Source of the DNA: Emiliania huxleyi CCMP1516
Taxonomy: Eukaryota
Reading direction: 5' to 3'
Length of the DNA stretch: 64,000 nucleotides
Assembly (NCBI RefSeq): GCF_000372725.1
Contig: NW_005201113.1
Coordinates: 1 to 64,000 of the forward strand
The notes beneath the pieces were generated by a model. That model had not been told where the DNA came from and made no database searches. It saw only the letters and a program-made list of their open reading frames with translations. A program made the position numbers and the translations under genes. Below are positions 8,477-55,775 of this stretch, piece by piece (the stretch's first letter is position 1; the number at the start of each line of letters is the position of its first letter).

Positions 8477-8832
8477 TGCCGCGGGCGCTCGCCGCAGGCA
8501 TGCCATGCGCCGCCGTCGCGCGTCACGGAGGCATCGCAAGCGCGCCCAGTAGCAGGGCGGGGAACCTGTGCGCAGACACGCGGGGCAGCGGCGGCCATTC
8601 TTCTTCTCGTTCGGGTTTGCATGAGGCATGCTCTGGGGTGTTTACTGTTGCTGCATGGTACTGCCAAAAAACTTTCGAGTCACTCCTCGTCGCAAACCCT
8701 GTCGTCACCTCAACATACTGTATGTTCGTAAAAGCCACACTCCTGAATAAAACGAATCGACGAATAAGCCGCTCCCGAGGTCTCGCGCGAGCATGAGCGG
8801 CCGGGCCCCGGGCAGTCGGTGGACTTGCGGGC

Positions 8833-10254
8833 ATGGGCAGTGCCTTCTCCACGAGCGCCGCACCAGCTGCTGGCGAGCCGGATCCGGACGAAGGCATTGA
8901 GAAGCTCGCTCGGATGCTAGCCGGGGGCAGGTCGATGACTGTCTTTACAGGTGCAGGCTGCTCAGTCGAGCCACCCTCATCCATCCCCGACTTTCGCTCA
9001 CCGGGCGGCCTCTGGTCTCGATACGACCCGGCGGTGTACTGCGAGTACAACACTTTTGTCGGCCAGCCACATCTCTTCTGGGAGATGGCGACGGAGTTGA
9101 CGCGTGACATCCACGCCATCAACGGAGGCACGCAGGAAGAGCTGCTCGAGACGGGCACCGTCCGGCACGCGCGGCCGAACGCGGCGCACGTCGCCATCGC
9201 CGATCTGGAGAGGCTGGGCTGCGTGACCGCCTGCATCACGCAAAACATTGACGGGCTGCATGGGAAGGCTTGCTTCTTTCCTCCCCCTTTCCCCCTCTCT
9301 CTCCATGTCTCACGCACCCGCTGTGCCGGCTGTGGCCAATCTGTGCCCGCTATGGCCCATCAGGCGGGCTCCTCCTCCGTCATCGAGCTTCACGGGCATC
9401 CGACGTGGACATCCGCCGCCACAGGGAGCCGAATTCGGTAGTTCTCGGGACCGTCCTGTAGGCGGCAGAGCTCGGCGACATGCATGGCGTGCGGCGCCGG
9501 CTGCGAAACCGAGGCCGAGGTCATCCCGCAGTGGGTCGCCTGGCAGCAGGCGCAGGCCGCGGCAGCGGCTTGCGCTCCGATTTCGTGTTTCTCTAGTCGC
9601 GCATGTTCCTGATTGCAACAGGCGCAGGGCGCGGGCGGCTCCTTCGTGCCCACTTGCCACTGCCCTAGATGCACGGTTCCTATTTCCCGACTAGCCTCGC
9701 CACGTATTCAGCCCAATCACTGTCTTCGTAACCTACGAATGCACGCGATCGCTCCGAGGTTTGGTGTGTCCGCAACGCAGGCCCGCAGCCAGGGTGCGAG
9801 GGCGTGCTCAAGCCGGATGTCACGCTATTCGGAGAAGCTCTGCCGACGGGTGCCTACGCTCGCGCGGTGGGGAAAGTGCTGGCGGCGCCCACCCCGACTC
9901 GTCGTACGTGCTTACCAGATTTCGTCCTCTCTCTTGACAGGTTTCTATCTTGTAGGCGCCCATCTGCCTCGTCGTCGGTACGTCGCTAAACGTCTTCCCC
10001 GCGAGCACAGTGCTTGGCTCCGCGAAGAAAAGAGCCCCACGGTTCCCTTGTCGTGGATGGCAAACCCCTTTTCATAGGTCCCTGGCTTCGTGACCAAGCG
10101 GTTCGGCACACTCGCAGTCAATAACCTCGACGGCTCGGGTACCGGCGACGCACACATAGTGCTTCGAGGACCCGCGGGCGACACGATGACCAGGCTCGCG
10201 AGGCGCGTTCGAGAGCTGAAGAGCCTCCCCGCGGCAACGGCAGGGCGGCTCTAG
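8833..10254 (+). CDS. NAD-dependent deacylase, Sir2/sirtuin family (multi-exon)
   Basis: VFTGAGCS..IPDFRSPGGLW, PNAAH, ITQNIDGLH, VIELHG, CxxC, LKPDVTLFGE, VVGTSL spread over exons; stop TAG 10252-10254. Confidence 0.92.
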
Positions 10255-10320: not shown

Positions 10321-10770
10321 TGTAGCCTGATGTCGTTCTCATTGTTGTGACTTGTGTTGCGCTGCCTGGGGTGCCCGCGGTTCGTAATAACCGCCAAAAC
10401 TGCTTCGGTCTCAATCTTCAAAAGAGATGACATGTGAGCCCCGCTGCCTTCACGCAGCTTCACATTCGTCAGATCTCGATGCTTCGTCCCTACGTATTTC
10501 TGTCGTCGCCGAACGTCCGGTCGTCCGTGTATGCGCGCGCGCGCTCTAGCCGCGAACGCGGCCGAACGCGCGCATCTCGACATCGCCTTCCGCGGGGCAT
10601 ATCACAATAAAATACGTAATCACACTCACGGATCCGGACGCCGAGAGCTGCTGATCTTGATTGTGTACTGCACTCTAGAAGAGCAGAGCCCCGACACCCG
10701 AGACTCCCGTCCAAAGCTCGCGATGGCGTATGTGACCTCAACGCAAGCAAAATGTATCAGAACAGAGCCC

Positions 10771-15631: not shown

Positions 15632-17194
15632 GAGAGAGAGAGAGAGAATTCTTGATACGAAACCACGACGACACACACCAGTCGACTCGCATCGGTTGCC
15701 TCCATGAACGGCGGAGCTATTCTCGCGCCCACACCACACCTGGCTCCAACGTGGACACGCCCATAGCTGGGGACACTACTAGGTCACGCATGGCATCACA
15801 GAAGTTTTATCTCTGGGCCCCGAAAGGCATCTCTAGCAGTGTCGTTACACATGCCCCCTCCCCTCCTGGGCGCATGCGCCTCACGTCTCGCCAGAGCATA
15901 AGCCCTTGGCGTGTGGCGAGACGAGTTTTTCGCCATCGCAGCGAGCAGCAACCCGCCCGCCGCAAACAGCCGGAGGCCTCGCCGCGGCACTGGCTGCGCC
16001 GCGGTCCCGCACCCGTCGACGCAGCTCCCCCCGCGGAAGACCGCGCGTAGCAACGTCTTGACGATCGAGATGAGCGTGCCTGAAGCTCGCCCACCTACTG
16101 CCCCTGAGAGTTGGTTATTGAGTGGGATCAGCTCCCCCCCTTGGGATCGAAGCCGCCACAACCTCACACCCAACATCACAGGCGGGATCAGAAGGGGACT
16201 CCACACCGGACACCGCCCGGGCACAGCCCCCCTACCCGTCGGATCGCACAGAGGGCCCCCTCGGAGCAGCCCACACACAATCACGCATCGGCAGATTGAG
16301 TGCCTGAGTCAGGCAGACAGCACAGACAAGAGGAGAGAGAGGAGAGAGAGAGAGAGAGAGAGGAGAGAGGAGAGGGTGAGGGTGTGAACACACGTGAGGA
16401 GTGGGGGAGGGTGTCTGTGGTGGGTTGTAGTCATACTACGTGGTTAGAACCACGCGCTCCTCAGGAGCTCAAGGTAGAGCTGAGCGTCCAAGACGCCTCG
16501 GTGCCTCCCACCGGCGTGAGACCATCCGGATCTACCCAGTGCGTCCTCCGGACGGGCTGGTCCCCGCGATGGCCCACGGTCCGCCGTCGCCTGGTTGAAC
16601 CCCCTGCCTCCCGGTTGACCCCCCGGTCCCCGTACACGACCATGAAATAAACTCAAAGTCCACCACAGCCACCAGCCTCCACCTCCACCCGCGAGCCGCC
16701 ACCGCTGCCGCCCGCGACGCCGCCCGCCGCGTCAGATAGCCGCGACGCGCGCATCGAGTCGCGTCGGAGAGCCGCACCGCACCAGCAGCAGCATCTGCAC
16801 CACCACCACCACCAGCAGCACCACCACCACCACCAAAGAGAGAAGCGCACCTGCCCGACGCCGCCCGCCTCGTCAGATGCTTGCGACGCGCGCGTCGAGC
16901 CCAGTCGCACAGCCGCGCCGCGCCAGCAGCAGCATCGGCACCAGCAGCAGCACCACCACCACCACCAGCATCAACATAGACAGGCAGTGCAGGCGCAGAG
17001 GCGCTCGCAGAGCGGCGCTCAGCGCCGCGCACGCCACGCCGCGGACCGTCGGACGAGCGCACCGTACGTCGGCGGCGAGCCGCGTCGCCAGCCGTCGCGC
17101 GAGAGAGCGGCGCCGCCGCGTGCGCGCAGCAGCCGCCGCGGCAGAGGCGAGCCGCGGCGACGTCCGCACTAACGGATAACGGTCATTGGCGGTT

Positions 17195-17580: not shown

Positions 17581-17590
17581 CTAGAAGACA

Positions 17591-19176
17591 GAGAGAGAGA
17601 GAGAATTCTTGATACGAAACCACGACGACACACACCAGTCGACTCGCATCGGTTGCCTCCATGAACGGCGGAGCTATTCTCGCGCCCACACCACACCTGG
17701 CTCCAACGTGGACACGCCCATAGCTGGGGACACTACTAGGTCACGCATGGCATCACAGAAGTTTTATCTCTGGGCCCCGAAAGGCATCTCTAGCAGTGTC
17801 GTTACACATGCCCCCTCCCCTCCTGGGCGCATGCGCCTCACGTCTCGCCAGAGCATAAGCCCTTGGCGTGTGGCGAGACGAGTTTTTCGCCATCGCAGCG
17901 AGCAGCAAGCCGCCCGCCGCAAACAGCCGGAGGCCTCGCCGCGGCACTGGCTGCGCCGCGGTCCCGCACCCGTCGACGCAGCTCCCCCCGCGGAAGACCG
18001 CGCGTAGCAACGTCTTGACGATCGAGATGAGCGTGCCTGAAGCTCGCCCACCTACTGCCCCTGAGAGTTGGTTATTGAGTGGGATCAGCTCCCCCCCTTG
18101 GGATCGAAGCCGCCACAACCTCACACCCAACATCCCAGGCGGGATCAGAAGGGGACTCCACACCGGACACCGCCCGGGCACAGCCCCCCTACCCGTCGGA
18201 TCGCACAGAGGGCCCCCTCGGAGCAGCCCACACACAATCACGCATCGGCAGATTGAGTGCCTGAGTCAGGCAGACAGCACAGACAAGAGGAGAGAGAGGA
18301 GAGAGAGAGAGAGAGAGAGGAGAGAGGAGAGGGTGAGGGTGTGAACACACGTGAGGAGTGGGGGAGGGTGTCTGTGGTGGGCTGTAGTCCTACTACGTGG
18401 TTACAACCACGCGCCCCTCAGGAGCTTAAGGTAGAGCTGAGCGTCCAAGACGCCTCGGTGCCTCCCACCGGCGTGAAGACCATCCGGATCTATCTGCCGC
18501 GTCCTCCGTACGCAGCAGTCCCCGCGATGGCCCACGGTCCTCCGTCGCCTGGTTGAACCCCCTGCCTCCCGGTTGACCCCCCGGTCCCCGTACACGACCA
18601 TGAAATAAACTCAAAGTCCACCACAGCCTCCAGCCTCCACCTCCACCCGCGAGCCGCCACCGCTGCCGCCCGCGACGCCGCCCGCCGCGTCAAATAGCCG
18701 CGACGCGCGCATCGAGTCGCGTCGGAGAGCCGCGCCGCACCAGCAGCAGCATCTGCACCACCAGCAGCAGCAGCAGCACCACCACCACCACCCGAGAGAG
18801 AAGCGCACCTGCCCGACGCCGCCCGCCGCGTCAGACGCTCGCGACGCGCGCGTCGAGCCCAGTCTCACAGCCGCGCCGCGCCAGCAGCAGCATCGGCACC
18901 AGCAGCAGCAGCACCACCACCACCAGCAGCAACACAGACAGGCAGTGCAGGCGCAGAGGCGCTCGCAGAGCGGCGCTCAGCGCCGCGCACGCCACGCTGC
19001 GGACCGTCGGACGAGCGCACCGTACGTCGGCGGCGAGCCGCGTCGCCAGCCGTCTCGCGAGAGAGCGGCGCCGCCGCGTGCGCGCAGCAGCCGCCGCGGC
19101 AGAGGCGAGCCGCGGCGACGTCCGCACTAACGGATAACGGCCATTGGCGGTTTTCTCTCTCTCTCTCTCTCTCTCT
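17591..19176. mobile_element. 1.6-kb non-autonomous element with (GA)n/(TC)n termini, copy 2
   Basis: Flanked by a different 10-bp duplication, CTAGAAGACA, at 17581-17590 and 19177-19186. Confidence 0.85.
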
Positions 19177-19401
19177 CTAGAAGACACCCCGCCGAGAAAA
19201 GAGAACCCACGAATTCGCCGACTCGACGGCCCCCTCAGGCTGCGACAGGTCGTCCAAGTGATCTCATCCAATTGCACCGCCCCTCCTCCCCTTGTGCTAA
19301 TGTAACACCTCGAAAGTGCCAGCTCCCTCTCACGCCCTCTGCTCGCGGCCTCGCAGGCAGCCGTCTGCGTCTCTGCGTTGTGCAACCCCGCCCGGCCTCT
19401 C

Positions 19402-22400
19402 ATGATGCGCCAGACGCCGCAGCCGACCGATCCCGGCTCCTCGGAGCCGGTCAGCGAGACCGAGTCGGGCTGCGAGTCGGCCGACCCGATCGCGCCAGAG
19501 ACCGTTCGGATGCTGCGCCTCGAACTCGAGGGCGAGCGGCGGCAAAACAAGCAGTGGCAGGCCAAGCTCAAGCGAGCGGCCAAGCTCAACGAGCAGCTGG
19601 TGAGGACCGCCGCCTGGCCCCGCGCCGCCGCCGCCGCCGCCTCCGCGTCGGCCTGCGCGTCCGCGTCCGCCGCCTCGTCCCTCGCCGCCACCACCTCTGC
19701 TGCGTCCGGAGTTCCACCGGAAGAGGCGCTTACGTAACTAACCACAATGACGGGGCTGGAATTAGCACATCCACCCTAAGACATGCTTACACACAACCGA
19801 ACAGAACCCGAGCCAGAACTATCTCAGTGACTACCACATGTGCTATGCCACCATGCACGATAACACACAATAAAATCTGATGGGCACTCNNNNNNNNNNN
19901 NNNNNNNNNNNNNNNNNNNNNNNNNNNNNNNNNNNNNNNNNNNNNNNNNNNNNNNNNNNNNNNNNNNNNNNNNNNNNNNNNNNNNNNNNTGGCCCTCCTC
20001 GTCGTAGATCACAGTGGTCCAGCTGCCGCCGCGACGGGTCCACCCCCGGTGAGCTCGTACGTCCCGACTCCACTCGCAGAGGTCGCGTCAGCTCATCTCT
20101 CGCCTCCTCCGACAGTTGACCCCAAGCCCCCCCTGGGGCCTGGGGCCCTCCGGCCTCGGCCTTCCGGCTCGCCGGCGGGCCCGTTATTTATCGTATTGCG
20201 GTAACTCCCCTCCCCCAGCTCCTCCTCCCGGGTACTCCAGCCTCCGGCGGGGCGGCTCCGGATCCCCCAGGTTATTCCGAGCGTGTCCATACGGTGGCAG
20301 CCCCGCCGGCGGCGGGGGTGGAGGCGGCGGCAGGGGTGGCGGGTACGGTGGCGAGGGCGCTAAGAGGTTCCTCTTTTCCGCGCCCCCCCCCGCAAGGCGC
20401 GCGATACACACGGTGGCGACCCTCGCGGCCAAAGCGCCTGGTGTGGAGCCGCCGGGGCGGCTCCACGTCCCTTCTGAGGGAGGGAGAGGGAGAGAGAGAG
20501 GGAGGAGGACGACACACCGCCATCCATCCGTTGACTGAGTCACGCCTCCGTCGCTACTGGGCCAGGTCGAGATGGAGGAGGAGAACATCACAAACAAGCT
20601 CTACAAGAAGCTGGAGCAGGTGCCGCGCCAGCCCGAGATTGCCCGAGATTGCGCGCGAGATGACGTGAGATGGCACGAGATGGCGCGAGATGACGCGAGA
20701 TGGCGCGAGATGACGCGAGATGATGGCGCGGAGATGACGCGAGATGATGGCGCGAGATGATGGCGCGAGATGACGCGAGATGACCCCCCCCCCCCCCCCA
20801 CCCCCCGCAGGTCAAGCAGGAGAAGGTGTCGCTCGAGAATCTGCTCGAGCAGGCGCGCAAGAGCACCCCGCCCGTCACTCGGCCGCTAGCGCCTCGCTAG
20901 CTAGCTGGTTAGTGGAGGAGCGCCCGAGGAGCTAGCTGATTAGTGGAGGAGCTCGTTAGCTAGCCATTAGTGGAGGAGCTAGCTGATTAGTGGCTCGAGC
21001 ACGGCCTGTGTCCTTCGACGCCGGGGGGCNNNNNNNNNNNNNNNNNNNNNNNNNNNNNNNNNNNNNNNNNNNNNNNNNNNNNNNNNNNNNNNNNNNNNNN
21101 NNNNNNNNNNNNNNNNNNNNNNNNNNNNNTGGGATCCCCGCCTCCTAAAAGTGGGCTCTAAGCTGGGGCACAGGTCCTTGGAAGGAAGCTTATGGTGAGC
21201 TCCAGCTAGGGAGCTTCTTCGTTCCTAACTATATCCACAGGGAATGCGATGACGCCTCCATTCACACACCTCTATTCACACACCTCTATTCACACCCGTA
21301 AGGCGCAGGAGCGGTACCGGACCGAGTGCGAGGCCCGCAGCAAGTGTCGTCAGAAGAGAGAGGGGGGGTTCACGCTGGTAGGGTTGATGACTGCCTCTCA
21401 CACAGCAGGCGCAGCGAGATTCCCCGAGATCCCCCGAGATCCCCCGAGATTCCCCGAGATCACCCGAGAGTACCCGAGAGGAGCCGAGAATACCCGAGAT
21501 TCCCCGAGAGTACCCGAGAGTACCCGAGAGTCCCCGAGACTGATGGCTGCCTCTCTCACTGCAGGCGCAGCGGGCGTCGTCGGAGAAGCTCGAGCGCGAG
21601 TTGGCGAGGCTGCAAGCTGACAACGCGGGCTTGCAGCACAAGGCCGAGAGATTGCACGAGAGGAGCCGAGATCACTCGAGATCACCCGAGATCACTCGAG
21701 CGTAGCCGAGAGGACCCGAGAGGAGCCGAGAGTAGCCGAGAGGAGCCGAGAGTAGCCGAGAGGAGCCGAGAGCAGCCGAGAGCAGCCGAGAGCAGCCGAG
21801 AGCAGCCGAGAGCAGCCGAGAGTAGCCGAGAGGAGCCGAGAGGAGCCGAGAGGACCCGAGAGGACCCGAGAGGACCCGAGATCACCCGAGATCACCCGAG
21901 ATCACCCGAGATCACCCGAGATCACCCGAGATCACCCGAGATCACCCGAGATCACCCGAGATCACCCGAGATCACCCGTGACTCACTGAGGAGCAGGTCG
22001 CGCGCGAGCACGAGATCACTCGAGATCACCCGAGATGACCCGAGATCACCCGTTGCTTACTTAGCAGGTCGCGCGCGAGCACGAGATCCGCATTGCGGCG
22101 CAGGTGATCTCGGGTAATCTCGGGCAATCTCGGGCAATCTCGGGTAATCTCGGGCAATCTCGGGCAATCTCGGGTAATCTCGAGCACGAGATCCGCATCG
22201 CGGCGCAGGAGGAGAAGCTGCGGCTGGAGCGCGAGATTGAGATGGACTCGGAGCGCCATTTCAACTCCTGCTCCTCGCGCTCCTCGCTCTCGCTACCCGG
22301 GTCGCCCTCCGTCGCCGCCTCCGCGCCGACGATGCCTTACCCCAACCTGCACCTGCCGCCGGGCTCGTACCACCTAGAAGCGGAAGACGTGTCCATGTCT

Positions 22401-22881
22401 CCCAACCAGCACTCGAGAGGGAACGTGCTCAGCCGTACTCCACTGTGTTTGCGTATTCACGACGTAAGCTCGCACGGCACCGAGAGGAGCCGAGAGGACC
22501 CGAGAGGACCCGAGAGTAGCCGAGAGTAGCCGAGAGTAGCCAAGAGGACCCGAGATCACCCGAGAGTACCCGAGAGGACCCGAGAGGACCGGAGAGGACC
22601 CGAGAGGACCCGAGAGGACCCGAGAGGACCCGAGAGGACCGGAGACTACCCGAGAGGACCCGAGAGGACCCGAGAGGACCGGAGACTAGGCTCCTACGGC
22701 ACCGCCTTCGCGTCGCTCGGCAAGCTCTCCCCGCAAGCTTCCTTCACGCTCAGCGCGCCCGGCCCGCCGTCTCCAAAGTGGGCGGCGCTCGCGCCCGCGA
22801 GGATGCACTGGGAATGGCGTCTCTTCACACCTCCTGGCTGTGAATAGGTGGGCGGCGCTCGCGCCCGCGAGGATGCACTGA
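19402..22881 (+). CDS. CCDC6-like (DUF2046) coiled-coil protein; multi-exon, spans two gaps
   Basis: Exons MLRLELEGERRQNKQWQAKLKRAAKLNEQL, EMEEENITNKLYKKLEQ, VKQEKVSLENLLEQ, KLERELARLQADNAGLQHK, LEREIEMDSERHFN. These resemble the CCDC6 motifs EQEEEFISNTL.KK and EMDDERYFN. Confidence 0.7.
19990..20472. repeat. Inverted copy of 14175-14657 inside the first intron of the CCDC6-like gene; truncated by a gap
   Basis: Reverse-complement identity; ends GTGGAGCCGCCGGGGCGGCTCCAC-GTCCCT. Confidence 0.9.
21415..22686. repeat. Intronic 10-bp tandem arrays (CCGAGATCAC / CCGAGAGGAC / ATCTCGGGCA variants)
   Basis: Decamer periodicity visible between short exons; similar arrays at 20635-20783, 31976-32118, 32610-32769, 49225-49300 and 54361-54560. 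Confidence 0.95.
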
Positions 22882-23650
22882 CTCCGTCGGGCCGCTGCTC
22901 CGATTGCTCTGACGCTGCACCGGCTGCTCTGCTGCTCCGGCTGCTCCTCGCCGTGTCTGCACGGCTGTAGTTCGGCAGATTGCCGCTGCCGCTGCTGCTC
23001 CTGCTGTTGCTCGCCGCGTCTGGTTTTTTGTTTGGGGTAAGGCCTCCCCCCCCCCCCCCTCTTTCGGTGGCACCCTCTGTCCAGTGCACACATTCGCACA
23101 CGCACGCACGCACGCACGCACGCACGCACTCCCCTCCTCCGGTGGCGCCCTCTGTGCACACATTCGCATACACGTGCGCACACGCACACGCACACGCACG
23201 CACGCCACGCAGTAAACGCACGCATGGGTCCGGGTCGTTCGTCGTGTTGAATGTCTTTCGGTTTCGCTCTTTGTCTTTCGGTCTGTTGTCGGTCTGATGC
23301 CGAGTAAACCGCTATAATGCGAGACCGCGTGAACTGGCTCTCGGCCTCGAGCCGCGCGTCGAGCAGGGCCGTTAGCGGATAGCGCCGCGCCGCGCGTCCG
23401 GTCGGAGAGGAGAGCGCTCAGCGAGGTCAGGTTGCCCCGGCGCAGGTCAGCGAGCACGGTCGGGCTAGCGCCCTCCGCCTCCGCCTCAACGCCGCCGAGA
23501 AGGTATGTGAACGGCGCGGTGGCAAACTCGAGCGCCCGGCCAAAGAAGGAGCTGCGCCGTTCTTCTCGGGCGGCCGGCCGGGCGTAGGGAGAGGGCCTGG
23601 TCGCGGTCCGCGCGGAACGCGATGCCGGCATTCACAGCCTTGCCAGCCGG

Positions 23651-24425
23651 GTTGTTCTCGAGGTTCTCGAGGTGGATATCCTTTGGCCGCGTTGGGTAGC
23701 GAGGATTGGTGTAACCCGAGCCACGGAGGCGTGTTTTCTGGCGGCCGACCGTCAGTGCACGGAGTTGCCCTTTCTCCGACTGCCCAGGCTGTGAAAACAG
23801 GTTCTCTCGAGGTTCTCGAGGTGGATATCCTTTGGCCGCGTTGGGTAGCGAGGATTGGTGTAACCCGAGCCACGGAGGCGTGTTTTCTGACGGCCGACCG
23901 TCAGTGCACGGAGTTGCCACTTCTCCGACTGCCCCGGCTAGTTCCCGAGTTTCGCGGGAGTGACCCCATGCGTCAAACCCGAGACCTAGCGCGGGTGGGT
24001 TGGAGGGGGCTCGCCCCGTTCCTCCCCATCGGGCCGCGTGAGCGGCCACGCCTCGCAGATTCGTTTTCGCGCCTGGGTCAGGCGCGCGGGGCATCCCCCG
24101 GGTCGCTCGACCAGCGATCCGAAGAGTGGCCGCTATGCGAAGGAAAGAGTGGGGCCCTCGGGGTACGCCTCGTCCGGCCCCCTCCGAGGGGGGAAGGGAA
24201 TTGCGGGGTCCCCTCGGGCGCCTCAGTTCGGCCCTCCCGAGGGGGGGAGGGGAGCAAGGGGGTGGGGGGGTCGGGGCGGTGGGGAGGGGTCTCGGTTTCA
24301 TGTGGCTAACACTTGCCTTTCGGGGAGGGGCCTCGCGCCAAGCGCAATTGAATGCTGCCTGACCTCTTCCCCTCCTCCCTCGAGGCAGCGAGTAGGCAGC
24401 GAGAGGAAGTCTCGAGCGCCTATAT
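23651..24425. repeat. Dispersed non-coding repeat (copy at 38360-38985); first ~150 bp tandemly duplicated here
   Basis: gttctcgaggtggatatcctttggccgcgttgggtagcgagg...ctcgagcgcctata is shared; the ORF track shows identical spurious peptides at both loci. Confidence 0.9.
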
Positions 24426-26083
24426 GAAGGTATGTGAGATGGTGATGGGAATGGGTGGTCGGGCGGGCGGGCGGGGCGGGCGGGCGGGGCGGGCGGGCGG
24501 GCGGGCGGGCAAGCGGGGAGAGGCGGGCGGGCGGGGCGGAGCGGGCGGGCGGGGTGATCGGAGAAATCGTAGCCACAATCAGCAGCAGCGGAGCAGCAGC
24601 AGCAGTAGCAGCAGCAGCTGCAGCAGCCAGCAGCAGCCTCCACCGTCGAGCCGCGATCGCTGCCGCCCGCGACGCCGCCCGCCGCGTCAGATTGCCGCGA
24701 CGCGCGCCTCGAGTCGAGTCGGAGAGCCGCGCCGCAGCAGCAGCATCAGCACCAGCACCACCAGCACCACCAGCACCACCAGCACCAGAGAGAGGCGCAA
24801 CCTGCCCGACGCCGCCGTGTCAGATGCTTCCGACGCGCGTCTCGAGCCGAGTCGCAGAGCCGCGCCGCGCCAGCAGCAGCATATGCACCAGCAGCAGCAA
24901 CATCACCACCGTGAAAACAGCACTTTGGGGATTTGCACAGCGTCTTCTTCGCTGTTTGTACCGTCGCGGGGAGCGGGCGATAACGCCCGCCCCCACGGTG
25001 GCGAGTCCAGGCGCGGCCGCCAGGCTCGGGCCTCTGGGCGCTATTCTGCACTCGTTATAGGAATTGGGAATCGGGAACACCCCGACGGAAGTCTCAATAG
25101 GGCGGATCGGGCGTAATAGTCTCGCGATGGGCACCAGACGGGCACATTCGGTGACACACAAAGGAATAGCCCCGCTGCACTACTACGTGCGCGGTAATGG
25201 CAGCGCTGCACCGGCGCTGGGGGAAGCGGTAGCATGGCGCGGGCAGCGACGTGTACAGCACGCCCCAGGGAACCTAGATACCCTGGGGTCGCCTCGTGAA
25301 TAAACGAGTATAAAGAGCGGTGGGATTTGTACCTGGCGTTTGTGCCCCGTTTGTGAGTGTGTGTGAGTGCCGCGTCCCGCGCCCCCTCATTTTAACCTGA
25401 TTTTAACTTGGGGGGAATTCCAGTCAATAGAGCATGAAATACCTTTCGACCGGTGGCTGGCCGCCAAAGTGGCTGGACGGCGCCGCGGCGCACACTGGTG
25501 AGCCGCGGAGCACACTGAGTGAGGTCGTCCCTAGGGTCGTCCGCCCCTCGTGAAAGCGCTGACAACCGCGACGTTCCTCTCTCGGGCTCGATCTCGCCAC
25601 TGTGCCTCTTTTGGTACCTGTGTCGAACCTGTCTGCTGTGCGATTGCTTTTGTTGAAGCCGTAGAACCCAGGGTCGTGCGAGGGAGGGTTGTGCGAGGGA
25701 GCTTTTGTAAAATTCTTTGTTCATGTTGCAATATAGTCGTCGGCCGGTCGTCCGTTGCCCCTCGTGAAAGCTGAGCGACGTTCCTCTCTCGGGCTCGATC
25801 CGCGGCGCGTCGCGACTTCTGCCGACGATGGAGACCGAAAAGCAGGTCCGCTCCGCCTTCGCCCGCCCTCTGATGGCTGCTGGCCAACCCGATCCCTTCG
25901 AATCGCAGGAGTCCATCTGCGGGAGCTCAATGTCCCACGACATAGGTGACCGGCCCCATGAGAGCCCTTTTTTTCAGCCGTCAGTAACCCCCGCCTTGCC
26001 GTTGTCCGCAGCGTTTTTCTGCCACCTCGTGAACACGGTCCTTTCTTTCTTCGGGATATTGCAATTCTCGACGCTGTCGTATC

Positions 26084-28459
26084 AGCCGCGAGGAGCCGCC
26101 GCCTCTGCCGGGCGGTCACGACCTTGGCGACCAGCTGTACTGGACGGGCCCGAACCATTCGTTTGAGAATGGCGATACGCTCACGCACGGCCAGCAGGGC
26201 GAGGTCGTCGGCCCCGCGACCGAGGGCACACACCATGGCAACGGCCTGCAGGTCCTGTTTCCAGGGAACAAAGGCTCCATAAACTGCTATCTGCCAAACC
26301 TCAGCCGCGAGAAGCCGCCGCCTCTGCTGGGCGGTCACGAGCTTGGCGACCAGCTGTACTACGCGGGCTCGAACCAGTCGTTCAAGTCTGGAAACAAGCT
26401 CGTGCACGGCCAGAAGGGCGAGATCATCGGCCCTGCGACCGGCGCGCACCAAGGCAACGGCCTGAAGATGCTCTTCCCAGGGAACAAAGACTGGGTAGAC
26501 TGCTCTCTGCCCCAGCTCAGCCTCGAGAAGCCGCCGCCTCTGCCGGGCGGTCACGAGCTTGGCGACCAGCTGTACTACACGGGCTCGAACCAGTCGTTTG
26601 AGAGTGGCGATAAGGTCATGCACGGCCAGCAGGGCGAGGTCGTCGGCCCAGCGACCGGCGAGCACCAAGGCAATGGCCTGCAGCTTCTCTTCCCAGGGAA
26701 CAACGGCTGGATAGAATGCGGACTCGCCTCGCTGTCCCACGAGCTGAGCCTGCCCGGTGGCTTCAGAGTGGGAGAGGAGCTCTACTTTATTGGCGGAGGG
26801 TTCGTCGACGAGCAGGGGGACAAGGCCGTGTTTGGCTGCCGAGGATCGGTCACCGGCCCCGCCCGCAACGGCGACGCCGACGCGGTTTCCATGTCTTTCT
26901 CCGGCAACCGAGGGGACATCCACTGCCGGGCCGAAGAGCTCAGCCGCGAGCCGGCGCCCTCGCTTCCTGGCGGCTTCATTCTCGGCGAGCATCTCTACTT
27001 CACCGGAGAGGACCAGATCGTCGGGCGCGGCATCCTCGTGCGCGGCTCGCGTGGTGAGGTGGTGGGCCTGGGTTTGGAGCCGGACAGCCTCGCGATGCGC
27101 TTTTCAAACAAGGCCTTGCTTTCCGGTAACCAGCCGGTCAACATCGCCTCCCTGAGCCGCGACGATCCGTGCGCCGTGTCGTCCGTGCCCGAGAATGTAT
27201 TGCGAGCGCGCCGAGCGCTCGCCGCGCGCAGGGAGGAGCAGGAGCGGGCTGTGGCAGCAGCCGCGTCGCAGACGGCAGAGGACATTGCAGCAGAGGCGGA
27301 GCGGCGGCAGCAGCTGGCGGCGGAGCTCCTGGAGGAGGAAGCTGCGGCCAGGGTTCCGCCTCCACTTCAAGAGGCGGGGAGGAGGAGGAGGAGGAAGAAG
27401 AAGCAGAGCGGCTTTCGCGGGTCGAGGAGCAGTGCAACCGAAGGAGCAGAGGGATCGGCCGCCTGCGGCGACTCCACCACCTCTAGGGCGGCGCCAGCGC
27501 GCGAGTCCGCTTCAGAGAGCGACGAGGAGGAGCGCGTGACGCCAGCCGAGGAGGCGCGACGGGCGGAGGAGTCGGAGCGGGCGGCGCAACGAGAGCGGCA
27601 GGCGAGGCTGCTCGAGGCAGCGCGGCGGGAGAGGGAGGAGCGTTTGGAGAGGGAGGCTAGGGCCGAGGCCGCTGCTGCGGCTGCGGTGGAGAGCGAGGCT
27701 CGCGGCAGGCGACAGCAGGCAGCGCGAGCGGCGGCGGAGGAGCGGAAGCGAGCAGCGCGGGCGGCGCTGGTGGACGAGATGGAGGCGCGGGCGCGGCAGG
27801 AGGAGGCGGCGCGGGCCGCGGCACCGCTGAGGACGTCACAGGCTGAGCAGTCCAGCACGCGGTCGGCGATCGAGCAGGCGCTCTCCCAGGCTAGGTCAGA
27901 CGCGGCGGCGGCGAGGGTTTGCGAGGCGACGGCGGGGTCAGAGGCGGGACGGGCGAGGTCAGAGGCGGAACAGGCGAGGTCAGAGGCGGAACAGGCGAGG
28001 TTAGAGGCGGAACAGGCGAGGTTGCAGGCGGAGGCGGCGAGGGCGAGGGAGGAGGAGGCGAGGGGGCGAGAGGGGGAAGCAAGGGGGCGGGAGGAGGCAG
28101 CGAGGGCGGAGGCGGAGGCGGCGACGGCACGCGAGGAGGCGCTCACCATGCGACTCGCGGCGCTCGAGCTAGAACCCCCACCGGCCGCCCCGCCACCGGC
28201 AACCGCAAACAACGCTGTGGGAGGAGGCGTCGGAGGCACCTTCCACGGCGCCACGCTGCCGCAGAAGGTCTCGCGGATCTGTACGCATTTGGGGCTGGAC
28301 GCGCGCTCCTCGCTCTCTGCGGCGGTGGCGGCGGCGAACGAGAGCACAGGGGTCGCCGCTGAGGGAGGGCTTTTGCAGCAGGTGGACCGGCTGATCGCGC
28401 TGCTATTTGGGGGGCCGCAGGGGGGCGCTCCGGAGGGGAGCAAAGAGGAGGTAAGGTAA
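26084..28459 (+). CDS. Protein with five tandem ~71-aa beta-rich repeats, a long coiled coil and a small C-terminal helical domain; true start unresolved
   Basis: Repeat PPPLPGGHELGDQLYYTG..SFExGDKxxHGQQGEVVGPA...GNGLxxLFPGNKG..xCxLxxLSRE; frame open from ~26081; C-terminal TLPQKVSRICTHLGLD...AAVAAAN...GGLLQQVDRL. Confidence 0.75.
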   Translation, partial: SREEPPPLPGGHDLGDQLYWTGPNHSFENGDTLTHGQQGEVVGPATEGTHHGNGLQVLFPGNKGSINCYLPNLSREKPPPLLGGHELGDQLYYAGSNQSFKSGNKLVHGQKGEIIGPATGAHQGNGLKMLFPGNKDWVDCSLPQLSLEKPPPLPGGHELGDQLYYTGSNQSFESGDKVMHGQQGEVVGPATGEHQGNGLQLLFPGNNGWIECGLASLSHELSLPGGFRVGEELYFIGGGFVDEQGDKAVFGCRGSVTGPARNGDADAVSMSFSGNRGDIHCRAEELSREPAPSLPGGFILGEHLYFTGEDQIVGRGILVRGSRGEVVGLGLEPDSLAMRFSNKALLSGNQPVNIASLSRDDPCAVSSVPENVLRARRALAARREEQERAVAAAASQTAEDIAAEAERRQQLAAELLEEEAAARVPPPLQEAGRRRRRKKKQSGFRGSRSSATEGAEGSAACGDSTTSRAAPARESASESDEEERVTPAEEARRAEESERAAQRERQARLLEAARREREERLEREARAEAAAAAAVESEARGRRQQAARAAAEERKRAARAALVDEMEARARQEEAARAAAPLRTSQAEQSSTRSAIEQALSQARSDAAAARVCEATAGSEAGRARSEAEQARSEAEQARLEAEQARLQAEAARAREEEARGREGEARGREEAARAEAEAATAREEALTMRLAALELEPPPAAPPPATANNAVGGGVGGTFHGATLPQKVSRICTHLGLDARSSLSAAVAAANESTGVAAEGGLLQQVDRLIALLFGGPQGGAPEGSKEEVR

Positions 28460-28770
28460 GGTCTCTAAGAAAGCCGTAAGGTAAACTTCTCACACACCCA
28501 AGGTGGGGGGCAAGGGGGGGCGACCCTCGCGTCTCGGAGAGGAGTGCAGGAGTCAAGAACCGACGTCCAAAACGCAAGGAAGAATCGGAGCTATGACGAA
28601 GAACGACCGGGAGAGCGGGACGCCGCGCCACGCCGGCCTCGCTAATGAAATTTACGTGTAGGCTACGCTGTAGGCGTGCGATGTCGCTTGAGTCCGTGTG
28701 TCTTGACTCTTGTGGAAGGCGAATCATTCCACCTGAGGTGTGTGTGTACGAGTAAAGTGTGTTGTGTGTA
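28451..28770 (-). mobile_element. (CCTTA)n-tailed retroposon, longer variant
   Basis: GTAAGGTAAG...GTAAGGTAAACTTCTCACACACCC..GGTGGGGGGCAAGGGGGGGCGACCCTCGCGTCTC shares the 3' ~70 bp with the SINE at 33887 and 51892. Confidence 0.65.
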
Positions 28771-29689
28771 CGAGAGTAAAGGGCCCCCTCGGAGCACACT
28801 GGCAGCACCAGCAGAGCTAGTAGAGTGCAGTTCACACCCGATCACCTCTTCAGCGCCTTCTCAGCTCTCATCATGCCGCGGCTACTGAGGGTGCCGTTCC
28901 AAATCAAGCCGATGTACGGCGTCGGTATCGTGGTCTCACACGCCGCACATGTCGTCCTCTCGAGCGCTGGTCGGAAGACTACGCATTCTGCGTCTCGTGT
29001 GCCGGTGTGTGTGCTAGCGTGCGCCCGTCCACGCCCTTGTCGTGCCCGTGTGCTGTGAGAGAGGCTGTCTTCTGAGACCTCTTCTCCGAAGTCAGGCTGC
29101 CGGCTTCACGCTGCCACCTCTGCCACCTCTGCCACGCCTCTCTCACGACACACTAGAGAGAGAGGCGTGTCGTCTAAGCATTGTGCTTCTAGGAGGCCGG
29201 GCTACCTTGATGTCGACGCCGCGGTAGCCCGTCCGGGAGCGCGAGCTGAGGTGCAGCGCCACCTACGGGTGTGTGCGCGGGCGTGTCGTCGACGTGTCGT
29301 CGACGTGTCCGCGGGCGACAGGCGCAGCATCACCTAACGGGGGCGGGGTGTGCGGACGCGTGTCCTGGACGCGTCCACGACGTGTTTGCACGAAGAGGCG
29401 AGCGCGGCGGCCACCCCGTCCGGCGACACATCTCCCCATATCTCCGCATATCTCCCCATATCTCCCTCACCCCGTCCGGCGACACAGCCACCGCTGGCGC
29501 CTGCAGCTCTCGGAGCACGGCCGGCGGCAGCCTCTCGAGCCTAGACAGGTAGGGGACCGGTGTCCACGGGACGGACGGTCCAGGTAGAGGCCACCGGCGG
29601 CGGCGGCGGGCGAGTCTCGGGCCTACACAGAGGGGACGCGGTGTCCAGGCTCCAGGCAGAGGCCACCCACTACCGGCGGCGGGCCCGAT

Positions 29690-30419
29690 CGTGACCCACC
29701 GGGCCGTCACCGCCACCGTCGCCTCCCCCTCCGCCACCTCCGTCGCCGCCGCCACCGTCGCCACCGCCGCCGCCGCCGCCATCGCCGCCGCCGCCGCCAT
29801 CGCCGCCGCTACCGCCACCATCGCCGCCCCCTCCGCCACCGCCATCGCCGCCCCCATCACCTCCACCATCGCCACCGCCGCCCTCTCCGCCACCATCACC
29901 GCCGCCATCGTCACCGCCCCCCTCCCCTCCTCCGCCGTCGCCACCACCACCGTCACCCCCCCACCCTCTCCTCCACCACCCTCGCCGCCTCACCGCCGCC
30001 GCCCTCACCGCCGCGCCCCAGCCCGCCGCCACCATCGCCCCTGCCGCCGTCGCCACCTCCTTCGCCGCCTCCCAGCCCGCCTCCGCCATCGCCGCCGCCC
30101 CCATCACCGCCGCCCCCCAGCCTGCCGCCGCCCTCACCACCGCCGCCCTCGCCGCCGCCCCCGAGCCCACTGCCGCCCTCGCCGCCGCCGCCCTCACCTC
30201 CTCCCCCGAGCTCACCACCGCCGCCGCCGTCTCCGCCGCCCTTCCCGCCGCCGTCACCACCACCTCCGAGGCCGCCGCCTTCCCCGCCGCCCTCCCCACC
30301 ACCACCCTTGCCGCCGCCACCGAGTCCGCCTCCGCCAGCGCCGCCGCCACCGTCTCCACCGCCCTCGCCGCCGCCTTCGCCTAGCCCTCCACCCTCACCA
30401 CCGCCATCGCCGCCACCGC

Positions 30420-30450
<31 letters not shown>

Positions 30451-30537
30451 GCCGTCCCCGCCGCCGCCCTCGCCGCCTCCGCCGCCGCCGCCCTCACCAC
30501 CGCCGCCCTCGCCGCCGCCCCCACCCCCACCCTCGCC
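29690..30537 (+). repeat. Low-complexity (Ser-Pro-Pro-Pro-Pro)n extensin-like coding repeat with frameshifts; ends at a gap
   Basis: Long CCG/TCG/CCA-rich tract that translates to SPPPP repeats in shifting frames. Confidence 0.6.
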
Positions 30538-30884
30538 NNNNNNNNNNNNNNNNNNNNNNNNNNNNNNNNNNNNNNNNNNNNNNNNNNNNNNNNNNNNNNN
30601 NNNNNNNNNNNNNNNNNNNNNNNNNNNNNNNNNNNNNCCGAATCTCAGAGTCAGGAGGCAAAACCGAATACAGTGCCAAAATGACAGACTCAATACTGGC
30701 CCTAAAATCCGCCAGCCTGCTGTCTGCTGCCTCTACTCCCAGCCCGACGCCCTGGTCCCGTGCGAGAGCTTCAGGGATCCACACGGGGCCACACACCGGG
30801 GCCGTCTAAGTCGATTTGTACCCGGATTTTGAAGATTGTGGCAAAACCGCGGAGTCAAAAAATGCGTTTAATTTGCGCGCCTGC

Positions 30885-31045
30885 TGTCCGCCGCCTCCGG
30901 CGGCGCTCCGCGCCGCTCCGCGGCGCCTGCAGGCGCCTACGGCGCCTGAAGGCGCCTACGGCGCCTGCGGCGCCTCCAGCGCCTGCGGCGCTGCCGCTAC
31001 GCGGCAGCTCTTGCGCCTACGTCGCAGGGCGCCTGCGGCGCCCAC
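30885..31045. repeat. Array of 9-bp GGCGCCT(G/A)C units
   Basis: ggcgcctgc aggcgcctac ggcgcctgaa ggcgcctacg gcgcctgcgg... Confidence 0.75.
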
Positions 31046-31215
31046 CCCCCCCCGGGAGCCCCCCTCCAGCCGGTAGTGCCAGTGCGCGCCAGTCCCGTGC
31101 CTAGTGTATCGTGCGCGCGAGCAAAATTCTCTTTTTCACCCTCCTTTCAGTCGACCGCTGCCGGGGCCCCCCGGGGCCGCTCGGCCGCTCGGCGGACACC
31201 ACCCGCCAACGGCAT

Positions 31216-33612
31216 ATGGCCACCAAGTTCCCCGCGCCGAGCTGGGCGACGGAGACCACCCACGCCAACCTCGCGCTCGAAGTGCGGAGCGGCGGGACGC
31301 TTCTGCGCCGGCACGAGCTCCCGCGCGGCCGCCGCGTGTTTGTGATCGGGCGGCAGGCGGACGTGGCCGACGTGGTGGTCCGCGACGACGAGACGGCATC
31401 GCGGCAGCACTGCGCCATCGTGCCGCGCGGCGAGCGCCTCTACCTCATCGACCTCCGCTCGACGCGCGGCACCTTTGTCGACGGGGCGCGCCTCCCGCCG
31501 AACGAGCCGACCGAGCTGTCTCCCGGCGCCAGGCTGGCGCTGTCGGACGCGCCGCCGTACTCGATCGAGCTCGTCGGCCTCCCGCGCGCCGGCCTTGCAG
31601 CCGCCTCCTCGGTGCCCATCTCCATGGCGGCGGCGGCGCACGTGCCGCCCCGGTGCAGCGGTGCCCTCTGGCTGTGAGCAGCGTCTCTTCACACCTGCAG
31701 CTGTGAACAGGTGCCGTCCCGGTTCTCGGGCGACCCGTCCTACTATAACCAAAAGTGGGACCCTGACGCGGCGGCCGCGAGGCGAGACGAGGCGCTTCAG
31801 TTGGAGACGAACCTCCGCTGGTCACCGCCTGCGTGGGCGGTGATGGGGACGGGCGCGAGCCTCGCGGTCAACCTCGTCGAGGGCGGGGAGGTCGTCCAGG
31901 CGCTCGGCCTGCGGCAGAGTGATTCGTAGTGGATGGTTCAGAGTCATTGCTGGACTCTCTGAGCCAGATGACTCAATCTCCCGCTATCTCCCCCAATCTC
32001 CCCCAATCTCCCCCAATCTCCCCCAATCTCCCCCAATCTCCCCCAATCTCCCCCAATCTCCCCCAATCTCCCCCAAGTACTCCCTGAATCTCCCCCAATC
32101 TCCCCCAATCTCCCCCAAGTCTCTCTCAAGTAGTGAATGCATCTCAACCAGGCGCTCGACCTGAGCCAGAAGAAGGCGTATGTGCTCGGCCGCTCCCGCG
32201 AGCAGGCGGACTACGTCGTCCCAGTCGTGTGTCCTGGACACGTCCACGACATGTCCGAGACACGTCGCCGATAGGCGGACTACGTCGTCCCGGACGAGTC
32301 GGTCGTGTGTCCGGGACACGTCCACGACATGTCCGAGACACGTCGCCGATAGGCGGACTACGTCGTCCCGGACGAGTCGGTCTCGCGGCCGCAAGTACCA
32401 CACCCCCCCAGAGTCTCGAATCCAGTGTGGGTTCAGCTCCGTGGGTGGTGTGGTAGGTCTCTCGGCAGCACGCGGCGCTAATGCACGGGCCTCCCGACCC
32501 CCCGCGGCCCGGCGAGGCGCACGAGGCGCTTCTCACGCCGTGGCGCTGCCGCTGCGGCTGGGAGAACCGGCCGACGAACGGCGTCTGTGGCGGAGGCCGC
32601 AGGCACGCAATCTCCCACAATCTCCCCCAATCTCCCCGTCTCTCCCGCAATCTCCCGCCATCTCCCGCCATCTCCCCCGATCTCCCGCTATCTCCCCCAA
32701 TCTCCCGCAATCTCCCGCTATCCCCCCAATCTCCCCCAATTTCCCTAAATCTCCCCCAATCTCCCGCAGGCCGTACGGTTGCGGCGTCAACCGCGCCGTC
32801 GGCTGTCCAGATTACAGGTGCCCGCCACCGCCGCGCAGACGGCTCTTCACACCTCTAGCCGTGAGCAGCGTCTCTCCACACCTGCAGCTGTGAACAGGCC
32901 CGCCACCGCCGCGCAGACGTCGCTGCACGTGGCGGACCTCGCCTCGACAAAAGGCACGTTCCTCGACACGGGCGACGGCGTCTGGCGGCGGCTGCAGCAG
33001 CAGACGCCCATACGAGTGCCGCCCGGCGGCTGCCTCCAGCGGCGCGGCGAGTGCGAGGTGTGAGCAGCGCGTCTTCACACCTGCAGCTGTGAACAGGCGG
33101 CCGCCTCCGGCTCGGCGAGTGCGAGACGCTGGTGGTGCGTCCCGCGCCGCCCAGCCAGCCCGCGCACCATCCGACGCAGAGCATCGTGCCGATGGGCGCC
33201 GCCGCCCTCGCGGCGGCTCGAGCCGCCGCGGCGTCGCGCGCCGCGGAGGACGACAAGACGTCCGCGTACCGAAAGGCGAGCTCTTCCATCCCTTCACTCG
33301 TTCATTAGCGCAGCCCGCCGAGGGGCGATCTCTTCACTCAGATACCCAGTGCATTCACGCAGCCCGCCTAACCGAAAGGCGATGGAGGCGGCCGCGGCCC
33401 TCGTCGCGCCGCCCTCTCGCAAGCACGTCTCGGAAGCCTTCTCGGCGCTGCCGCCCCCGCCGCCGCCGCCAGACGAAGAGCAAGACGAGGCGGCGGAGGT
33501 GGCGGCGGCGGAGGCGGCCCAGCCTGAGCCGGGGTGGCCCGTGTCGGAGGCGAAGCGGCAGAGGGCGGGACCGGCAGAGGAGGGGTGGGTGGCGTGGGAG
33601 CAAGTAGAGTGA
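31216..33612 (+). CDS. Protein with two FHA domains (NIPP1/kanadaptin-like), at least 8 introns
   Basis: FHA1: P.WA...VFVIGRQ...SRQHCAI...LIDLRSTRGTFVDG. FHA2 assembled from exons: PPAWA...AYVLGRS..ADYVVPDESVSRQHAAL...VADLASTKGTFLD...PGGRLRLGE. Confidence 0.85.
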
Positions 33613-55598: not shown

Positions 55599-55775
55599 GC
55601 AAACACACCACTCTCGGAACGCCGATGCGCCTGTGATCGGCGGAAGAGCCGGCCGAACAGTCTTGATTCGGTGTGAACACGATTTTTTAGAATTTTACAA
55701 CAAAACTCCCTCGCACAACACTGGGCACGGGACTGGCGCGCACTGGCACTAACACAGGTACACCACGGGAGCCGC

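What the first reader, a model, noticed from the sequence alone, without database searches (positions are those of the whole stretch)
22778..22880. Apparently young intron made by a 37-bp hairpin insert with a perfect 33-bp target-site duplication
Seen: GTGGGCGGCGCTCGCGCCCGCGAGGATGCACTG occurs at 22778-22810 and 22848-22880, around GGAATGGCGTCTCTTCACACCTCCTGGCTGTGAATAG. Splicing from the GT of the first copy to the insert's AG (22778-22847) restores the original reading frame exactly (SPK|WAALAPARMH*). Inference: a small mobile insert supplies the 3' splice site and the duplicated exon sequence supplies the 5' site, so the insertion is spliced out seamlessly. The introners I know of have short TSDs; a duplication this long around so small an insert looks like a different mechanism.
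Basis: partly seen in the sequence, partly recalled or inferred. Interest (0 to 1): 0.92.

Follow-up and report, generated by a model that had tools for sequence, protein, structure and literature searches.

The report
Introns built from duplicated exon starts
In a marine alga (likely the coccolithophore Emiliania), this 70-base intron is a copy of the next 33 exon bases plus a short repeated module that supplies the intron's end; about ninety related introns share this build, which likely marks an undescribed copying process that makes new introns and would explain the alga's unusual GC splice donors.

Summary
The 33-nt repeat is exact, and two DNA-type runs carry the insert at flank depth. 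An RNA run and an RNA-like run skip exactly 22778-22847, GT..AG. The insert belongs to a ~41-nt family (arm, inverted arm, arm). Of 117 testable metagenome copies, 92 are preceded by a copy of their own downstream exon start (control 1%). The copy is 18-40 nt (median 28) and the intron 59-78 nt (median 68). Donors are GC 42, GT 29, GA 7 of 89. Unrelated fillers show the same build (29 of 694 AG|GY sites against 9 of 3,482 controls), so the process is wider than one mobile element. Best reading: the 3' end of an existing intron is copied into a staggered break at G|GY, and selection keeps products of about 68 nt. Enzyme and template are unknown. No empty allele was seen, and 'young' and 'hairpin' are weakly supported. 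Ten paper searches found no description. It works like an introner that takes its donor from the duplication, but lacks the short fixed duplication and inverted ends.

The parts
22778..22847 (+). 70-nt GT-AG intron, last intron of a DUF2046/CCDC6-like gene
   Evidence: Skipped in contigs of RNA run X9 and of X1; present in DNA-type runs X6 and X8
22778..22810 (+). Copy 1 of the 33-nt duplication; forms the intron's 5' part and supplies the GT donor
   Evidence: Exact repeat; joint ends GT..AG
22808..22847 (+). Family module (arm, inverted arm, arm), 37 nt unique plus 3 nt shared with copy 1; supplies the AG acceptor
   Evidence: raised depth over this stretch in DNA-type runs
22824..22828 (+). 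Possible branch-point motif, A about 20 nt before the 3' end (inferred from recalled consensus; not tested)
   Evidence: Sequence; present in the searched pattern, so its conservation is by construction
22848..22880 (+). Copy 2 of the duplication: start of the last exon, ending in the stop codon (22879-22881)
   Evidence: 9 of 9 cluster proteins end here
22690..22777 (+). Upstream exon of the host gene
   Evidence: tblastn of P0005; contigs
19400..22881 (+). Host gene, coiled-coil protein; 3 of 8 relatives scanned carry Pfam DUF2046 (H4/CCDC6). Start coordinate approximate
31642..31710 (+). Family intron 1 in the neighbouring FHA-domain gene (69 nt, decayed duplication; splicing not tested)
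   Evidence: duplication score only ties its control
32818..32897 (+). Family intron 2 (80 nt, GT-AG, two module units, 22-nt duplication)
   Evidence: Skipped in X9 and X1; present in metagenome ortholog L067
33026..33096 (+). Family intron 3 (71 nt, GC-AG, about 30-nt decayed duplication)
   Evidence: Skipped in X9 and X1, kept in a 351-nt contig of DNA-type run X3; present in L067
31900..32151 (+). Intron with the same duplication but a decamer-array filler (GC-AG, inferred)
   Evidence: score 26 against control maximum 20; relative P0010 runs open across the site
32206..32352 (+). Two tandem duplication-plus-filler units of another filler family (GC-AG, inferred)
   Evidence: P0010 runs open across the site
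22104..22208 (+). Mirror-type intron: the 28-nt duplication ends at the acceptor and the array filler begins at the donor
   Evidence: junction from P0005
54790..54890 (+). Degenerate pair of module pieces, apparently antisense to a minus-strand Zn-cluster gene and inside or beside one of its introns
   Evidence: gene structure read by eye

Best explanation
This is a real, spliced 70-nt intron made of a duplicated exon start plus a multi-copy 3' module, and it likely arose when the 3' end of an existing intron was copied into a staggered break about 25-35 nt wide. SHOWN: the unit is [copy of the next 18-40 exon bases][~41-nt module ending in AG]; its 3' junction is exact and its 5' junction ragged; the target is G|G(C/T); the total is about 68 nt; most copies lie in the sense of coding sequence; three such introns are skipped in RNA; unrelated fillers give the same build. 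INFERRED: a nick at the start of the future duplication primes copying of the template from its AG backwards (TPRT-like; RNA template more likely than DNA, enzyme unknown, perhaps a borrowed non-LTR retrotransposon RT/endonuclease or a repair polymerase). Copying stops near the module's left arm, and a second nick or strand displacement 25-35 nt downstream duplicates the exon start. The product is removed without a trace only if the duplicated piece starts with a usable donor and the total reaches about 60 nt or more, so selection sets G|GY, the sense orientation and the length. The two copies then allow unequal exchange: tandem gains (seen) and precise loss (predicted).
For: Exact 3' end and variable 5' junction: of 49 well-resolved copies, 13 overlap by 1-4 nt, 5 are blunt and 31 have extra bases; module length is 39-41 nt in 40. 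Variable duplication of 18-40 nt in 92 of 117 copies, controls 1% and 10 of 114. G follows the module in 121 of 126 copies, GC or GT in 113; G precedes the donor in 79 of 89. Sense bias: codon score 90 of 106; Pfam hits 13 of 114 sense against 3 of 112 antisense. RNA skipping. Other fillers: 29 of 694 against 9 of 3,482, 25 of the 29 at 65-76 nt, so templates are many and look like intron 3' halves; related fillers recur within one gene (L021, L079). One whole duplication-plus-module unit recurs at unrelated flanks (L015, L072, L081). Variable, even very long, duplications around LINE insertions and heavily 5'-truncated Penelope-like insertions are documented in Chlamydomonas (PMC9977147, passages). 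A relative (P0010, 69% identical over the first FHA exon, 14.7-kb contig) has an open frame across three of the window's intron sites.
Against: No enzyme or longer parent element was found (no RT or transposase family among 70 window ORFs; the genome is not held). No empty allele was seen at any site. Mirror-type introns, where the filler starts at the donor, exist (22104-22208; 14 of 711 against 41 of 3,581, p 0.10), and decamer arrays occur in both orientations; copying intron 3' ends does not explain these directly. Neighbouring modules are no more alike than random pairs (6.5 vs 5.7 and 8.4 vs 8.4 mismatches). 25 of 117 copies show no duplication. The exact-match search favours young, intact copies, and metagenome assembly favours genes, so precision and exon bias are inflated by an unknown amount. 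Most loci come from two assemblies that may be one sample, and the shared-unit loci could be misassemblies.
Confidence: 0.5

Rival explanations
1. Generic repair of staggered double-strand breaks with fillers copied from DNA elsewhere (polymerase-theta-like). There is no 3'-end-specific step; only spliceable products survive in exons, and this module is simply the most successful template.
For: Very diverse fillers, including AT-rich and quasi-palindromic ones and arrays in both orientations; mirror-type cases; extra bases at the junction in 31 of 49; an apparently antisense module pair at 54.8 kb. Staggered-break intron gain is described in Daphnia (PMC4202315, passages).
Against: The Daphnia repeats are 4-12 bp. 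Here 113 of 126 copies abut G(C/T) and 92 of 117 have the duplication starting at the AG; neutral copies with ragged ends should be common and are few. One 41-nt sequence appears to have been reused hundreds of times or more.
Confidence: 0.22
2. Partial reverse splicing: the post-splicing complex joins an intron's 3' AG to the displaced sense DNA strand of an R-loop at a G|GY site. The freed upstream DNA end is extended 25-35 nt by strand displacement and rejoined to a DNA copy of the intron's 3' part.
For: Explains in one step the exact 3' end, the splice-site-like target, the sense and exon bias and the variety of intron-end fillers. 16 of 123 loci hold a second module within about 500 nt, 21 pairs on the same strand against 2 opposite. 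Reverse splicing into R-loop DNA is proposed for introners without transposon marks (PMC10996645, passages). Linear group II introns integrating with an exact 3' and a ragged 5' junction is recalled, not read here.
Against: [quoted passage not shown] Antisense and mirror-type cases need another route. Selection can produce the same biases.
Confidence: 0.14
3. A minimal non-autonomous HUH (Replitron-like) transposon: 11-12-nt direct terminal repeats and a hairpin, inserting next to a fixed dinucleotide with a variable duplication and a fuzzy far end.
For: Read on the other strand, the module parallels all four Replitron-1 traits: oriented insertion after a dinucleotide, short direct terminal repeats, extra bases at the far end, variable duplication (PMC10288648, section 9 part 1). 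Replitron proteins are reported from two haptophytes.
Against: 41 nt is shorter than the 52-53 nt that align at each end of Replitron-1 and -N1, and duplications were seen in no other Replitron family. No longer element with these ends was found. It does not explain fillers without terminal repeats. No covariation in either hairpin (the 3' one is fixed by the search).
Confidence: 0.11
4. Not an intron gain: an assembly artefact, or a strain-specific insertion that is absent from the strains whose RNA was laid.
For: No matched DNA and RNA of one sample. The 33-nt repeat exceeds the 31-nt word size of the contigs, so an empty allele beside a filled one would add no new words.
Against: DNA-type runs X6 and X8 cover both junctions at flank depth. 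X9 and X1 also skip two family introns that X3 (one of them) and L067 (both) keep, with GT-AG and GC-AG ends.
Confidence: 0.03

Closest known systems
Introners that carry the 3' splice site and take the 5' site from the target-site duplication (Symbiodinium; Polarella classes 4/5 and 6/8/10; Aureococcus) - 10.1101/2022.06.06.494994, 10.1101/2020.10.14.339549, PMC11282704 (passages read)
   Same: Multi-copy insert, acceptor carried, donor recruited from the duplication, seamless removal, many GC and some GA donors, one productive orientation.
   Different: There the duplications are fixed and 3-8 nt, and many families have terminal inverted repeats. Here the duplication is 18-40 nt, variable and about 40% of the intron; the ends are direct repeats; and unrelated fillers share the signature.
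Intron gain by repair of staggered double-strand breaks (Daphnia pulex) - PMC4202315, PMC3443670 (passages read)
   Same: Direct repeat of exon sequence at the far end of a new intron; heterogeneous fillers.
   Different: Daphnia repeats are 4-12 bp with mostly unknown sources; here the repeats are about 28 nt, start at the donor, and one filler is a high-copy family.
Intron gain by tandem genomic duplication of an AGGT-bearing exon segment - PMC3443670 (passages read)
   Same: Duplicated exon sequence becomes the intron and supplies a splice site.
   Different: There both sites come from the duplication; here a foreign 30-55-nt piece supplies the acceptor.
Non-LTR and Penelope-like retroelement insertions with long variable duplications or heavy 5' truncation (Dualen-4b, Chlamys in Chlamydomonas) - PMC9977147 (passages read)
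   Same: Variable duplication flanking the insert (Dualen); very short 5'-truncated insertions (Chlamys).
   Different: Not described as intron-forming in the passages read; the module has no poly(A) tail, a fairly sharp 5' end, and no parent was found.
Replitron-1/N1 of Chlamydomonas reinhardtii - PMC10288648 (section 9 part 1 and passages read)
   Same: Short direct terminal repeats, hairpin, oriented insertion at a dinucleotide, fuzzy far end, variable duplication.
   Different: 910 bp and 3.6 kb against 41 nt; under-represented in coding sequence and introns (PMC9977147); no HUH partner known here.

Membership tests
Introner (transposon-derived intron family) | Many introns at unrelated loci share the inserted sequence | tested here: met
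   126 distinct copies in 123 loci; 4 in two genes of the window
Introner (transposon-derived intron family) | Similarity between introns reaches both intron ends (screening rule in 10.1101/2022.06.06.494994) | tested here: not met
   Similarity stops 40-41 nt before the AG; the first ~27 nt are site-specific host sequence
Introner (transposon-derived intron family) | Insertion is removed by splicing, with a splice site taken from the duplication | tested here: met
   Three family introns skipped in RNA contigs with GT-AG or GC-AG ends; DNA and RNA not from one sample
Introner (transposon-derived intron family) | Intron-less orthologous alleles or recent presence/absence variation | tested here: inconclusive
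   None seen. A 69%-identical relative is open across three sites of other filler types, not across a module site
MITE-type (DDE) introner | Short, fixed-length target-site duplication | tested here: not met
   18-40 nt, median 28, in 49 resolved copies
MITE-type (DDE) introner | Terminal inverted repeats | tested here: not met
   The two ends are direct repeats; the inverted arm is internal
Non-LTR retroelement / SINE-like insertion (TPRT) | Fixed 3' end, variable 5' end, variable duplication | tested here: met
   the 5' end is sharper than usual truncation would give (39-41 nt in 40 of 49)
Non-LTR retroelement / SINE-like insertion (TPRT) | Poly(A) or simple-repeat tail; 3' end shared with an autonomous RT-encoding element | tested here: inconclusive
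   No poly(A); no parent among loci flanks or window ORFs; whole genome not held
Replitron (HUH transposon) | Short direct terminal repeats and oriented insertion at a dinucleotide | tested here: met
   11-12-nt arms at both ends; G(C/T) follows in 113 of 126
Replitron (HUH transposon) | Autonomous partner with a Y1 Rep transposase and the same termini | not testable with these tools
   No genome held; flanks of 300-500 nt only
Known structured RNA family (Rfam) | Match to a covariance model | tested here: not met
   0 matches at E<=1 in 22600-33600

The most novel reading that the evidence does not exclude
Haptophytes of this lineage make a large share of their introns by a host-level reaction, not by a transposon: the 3' half of any existing intron is joined or copied to a G|GY site in a transcribed exon, possibly by spliceosomal partial reverse splicing into R-loop DNA, and the next ~28 exon bases are duplicated to become the intron's 5' half. 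Intron ends would then be self-propagating half-introns, and the GC-donor majority, frequent intron retention and repeat-filled introns of Emiliania would be scars of this one process.
Probability: 0.2. Interest if true: 0.95.

Novelty: new variant of a known kind. Interest (0 to 1): 0.8.

Why it matters
How new spliceosomal introns arise is an open question, and the known large-scale source is short-duplication transposons. Here about 40% of each new intron is the host's own exon, so screens that need similarity at both intron ends would miss the family (rule read). The donor is whatever G|GY the exon offered, which in a 65-70% GC genome gives 61 GC to 52 GT. That is close to the 56-65% GC donors reported for E. 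huxleyi, for which only a compositional explanation appears in the passages read (PMC4028052); unselected donors would also fit the reported intron retention. Each intron carries its own clock (copy 1 against copy 2: 48 mismatches in 1,351 nt) and a built-in route to precise loss or tandem gain. With hundreds to perhaps thousands of copies in a cultivable alga with many sequenced strains, the mechanism is directly testable.

Tried and rejected
Whole genome: none held, so no genome-wide count and no search for an autonomous partner. Pattern in prokaryote genomes and viral contigs: 0 and 0. Rfam: 0. Pfam on 70 long window ORFs (of 107 listed): no RT or transposase. Hairpin as a conserved RNA structure: 78-81% of cells pair against 27-52% for slid controls, but no compensatory change (24 rows). 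Nucleosome-linker idea (recalled): no CpG excess in the duplicated piece (0.138 vs 0.145, p 0.49, n 71). Copying from the nearest neighbour: not supported overall, though spacers match in 9 of 23 non-independent pairs against 15%. Intron length mod 3: no bias (p 0.50). Empty alleles: none among 13 overlapping locus pairs; one 67-nt unit differs in tandem number, L007 against L079. Run X5 did not cover the FHA flanks and says nothing. 'Every intron starts with an exon copy' is too strong: 5 of 11 introns in the two window genes beat their control, 2 tie and 4 do not. Naming the organism: three protein searches and two cluster look-ups gave no species name; Emiliania/Gephyrocapsa is inferred from 65% GC, GC donors, marine sources and recalled genome traits. 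My recollection that PMC2784329 describes decamer intron repeats was not borne out by its passages. PMC12857005 gave no duplication lengths for CRE/SLACS elements.

Full report
OBSERVATION. The two 33-mers at 22778-22810 and 22848-22880 are identical and flank a 37-nt insert ending in AG. They lie at the 3' end of a coiled-coil gene; 3 of 8 relatives scanned carry Pfam DUF2046. Removing 22778-22847 gives the C-terminus of five database proteins, four more end at the same place with two substitutions, and 0 of these 9 carry the 12-residue read-through tail. The window is 65% GC and full of decamer arrays. I infer Emiliania/Gephyrocapsa, but no call named the organism.

IS IT IN DNA AND IS IT SPLICED? 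Of 17 runs listed I laid six. On 22690-23030, DNA-type runs X6 and X8 have contigs over both insert junctions at about flank depth, while RNA run X9 and run X1 each have one contig that joins 22777 to 22848, GT..AG. On 32770-33480, X9 and X1 skip two more family introns, 32818-32897 (GT-AG) and 33026-33096 (GC-AG). A contig of DNA-type run X3 keeps the second, and metagenome locus L067 keeps both. X1 therefore behaves as RNA. Limits: these are contigs, not reads; no DNA and RNA pair is from one sample; and a 33-nt repeat hides an empty allele in 31-mer contigs except through depth.

THE FAMILY. A module motif occurs six times in the window against 0.07 expected. There were 146 matches, 126 distinct. 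The module is about 41 nt: a 12-nt arm, 3 nt, an imperfect inverted arm, 2-3 variable bases, and the arm again ending in AG; conservation drops sharply 40-41 nt before the AG. Summed contig depth over it is about 2,000 times single-copy depth in X3. The tool warns that this is no copy number; I read it only as hundreds to a few thousand copies.

THE DUPLICATION IS THE RULE. An ungapped copy of the downstream sequence (score 12 or more) lies upstream in 79 of 118 analysable copies against 0.3% of 600 shuffled pairings. A gapped test gives 92 of 117 above the 99th control percentile, against 10 of 114 for sequence further into the same exon; 9 copies lacked flank. For the 89 with a defined start, the implied intron is 59-78 nt (median 68, quartiles 66-71), donors are GC 42, GT 29, GA 7, other 11, and G precedes the donor in 79. 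In 49 well-resolved, non-tandem copies the duplication is 18-40 nt (median 28), perfect in 18, and 3.6% diverged overall; the 5' junction overlaps in 13, is blunt in 5 and has extra bases in 31. Copies lie mostly in the sense of coding sequence: 90 of 106 by a codon score trained on 1,427 window codons, and Pfam hits in 13 of 114 sense frames against 3 of 112 antisense. Tandem duplication-module-duplication-module arrays occur in the loci and in runs X3, X5 and X9, as unequal exchange between the repeats would give.

NOT ONLY THIS MODULE. With module sites excluded, AG|GY sites have an in-register upstream copy that starts with a donor in 29 of 694 cases against 9 of 3,482 other AG sites (odds ratio 17, p 5e-16), and 25 of the 29 are 65-76 nt long (a looser test gave 41 of 866 against 212 of 14,202). 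Their fillers are decamer or 11-mer arrays, AT-rich stretches and unique sequence. The mirror arrangement is not significantly enriched (14 of 711 against 41 of 3,581, p 0.10) but has real-looking cases, among them 22104-22208. In the two window genes 5 of 11 introns beat their control, 2 tie and 4 do not. A related protein on a 14.7-kb contig, P0010, aligns without a break across three of these intron sites. I infer an intron-less ortholog there; it is one sequence, and the direction of change is not proven.

MECHANISM. An exact 3' end, a ragged 5' end and a variable long duplication are what nick-primed copying of a template end produces. The fillers look like intron 3' halves, related ones recur within a gene (L021, L079), and one whole unit recurs at unrelated flanks (L015, L072, L081; misassembly not excluded). 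I therefore favour copying of an existing intron's 3' end into a staggered break, with selection fixing G|GY, orientation and length (0.5). Generic break repair with DNA-templated filler (0.22), partial reverse splicing into R-loop DNA (0.14) and a Replitron-like HUH element (0.11) remain open; artefact is unlikely (0.03). No enzyme, parent element or empty allele was found, and the search favours intact copies in genes. The anatomy itself I hold at about 0.9.

COMPARISON. It works like introners that carry the acceptor and take the donor from the duplication, but the duplications in the passages read are 3-8 nt and fixed. Daphnia break-repair introns have 4-12-bp repeats. A survey of 213 introns found repeats of 4-30 bp, mean 11.4, with no mention of Emiliania or haptophytes by name (PMC11782384). 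The two large introner surveys do not mention huxleyi or Emiliania in the main text; their supplements were not examined and may list it. Replitron-1 shares four insertion traits. E. huxleyi is reported to have 56-65% GC donors and reads through 89% of 535 introns. Ten searches found no description of this architecture; subscription papers, including the original genome paper, are outside the library. Of the 15 papers opened I saw keyword passages only, plus part 1 of section 9 of PMC10288648; the others not cited above are PMC8557442 and PMC8379373. An earlier AI note on another haptophyte genome (e1-2577349) describes a 66-nt intron with a 15-nt repeat and over a hundred relatives; it agrees, is unchecked, and is a lead only.

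VERDICT. The intron is real, spliced, and part of a large family and a wider process. It is a new variant of duplication-recruiting intron gain, with a 20% chance of being a distinct host-level route. Interest 0.8.

Noticed in passing
L015 190-850, L072 498-610, L081 200-400: One 71-73-nt duplication-plus-module unit occurs in arrays at unrelated flanks. L015 and L081 also share about 70 nt of leader, and in L015 two inverted arrays bracket a heliorhodopsin fragment. Possibly the tail of a longer mobile element, or misassembly.
   Followed up: partly
L079, L007, L095: A gene in which every visible intron is duplication plus filler, three of four with related 11-mer fillers. One unit differs in tandem number between assemblies, and the exon copy beside the module differs between L007 and L079 in a way that suggests conversion between the two copies.
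   Followed up: partly
window 32818-32825 against L067: The first bases of the intron copy differ between alleles: the window has a GT donor made by two extra bases, L067 a GC donor. Possible donor improvement after birth.
   Followed up: partly
window 33276-33378: 103-nt GC-AG intron skipped in RNA run X9, with a 12-nt repeat straddling both junctions.
   Followed up: partly
window 21240-21300: Intron with 14-nt repeats that resemble the module's arms.
   Followed up: no
window 29412-29486: 19-nt exact repeat around a 37-nt decamer array; probably another unit of the same build, strand not determined.
   Followed up: no
window 15633-15932 and 17590-17889; 16666, 18624, 24621: An identical repeat of at least 300 nt 1,957 nt apart and a dispersed 167-nt family; possibly LTR-like or a local duplication. 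No Pfam hit in the ORFs scanned there.
   Followed up: no
window 23656-23939 and 38364-38526: 149-nt tandem repeat with a 96%-identical dispersed copy.
   Followed up: no
L006 1-500: Module array joined to a cytochrome b frame on the opposite strand; probably a chimeric contig or an organellar insertion.
   Followed up: no
window 3745-6390, 8797-9441, 10757-12124, 54867-55694, 57060-58310, 60325-61884: Ordinary genes: helicase with helicase-associated repeats, Sir2, HPAT, Zn2-Cys6 cluster, protein kinase, ankyrin repeats.
   Followed up: no
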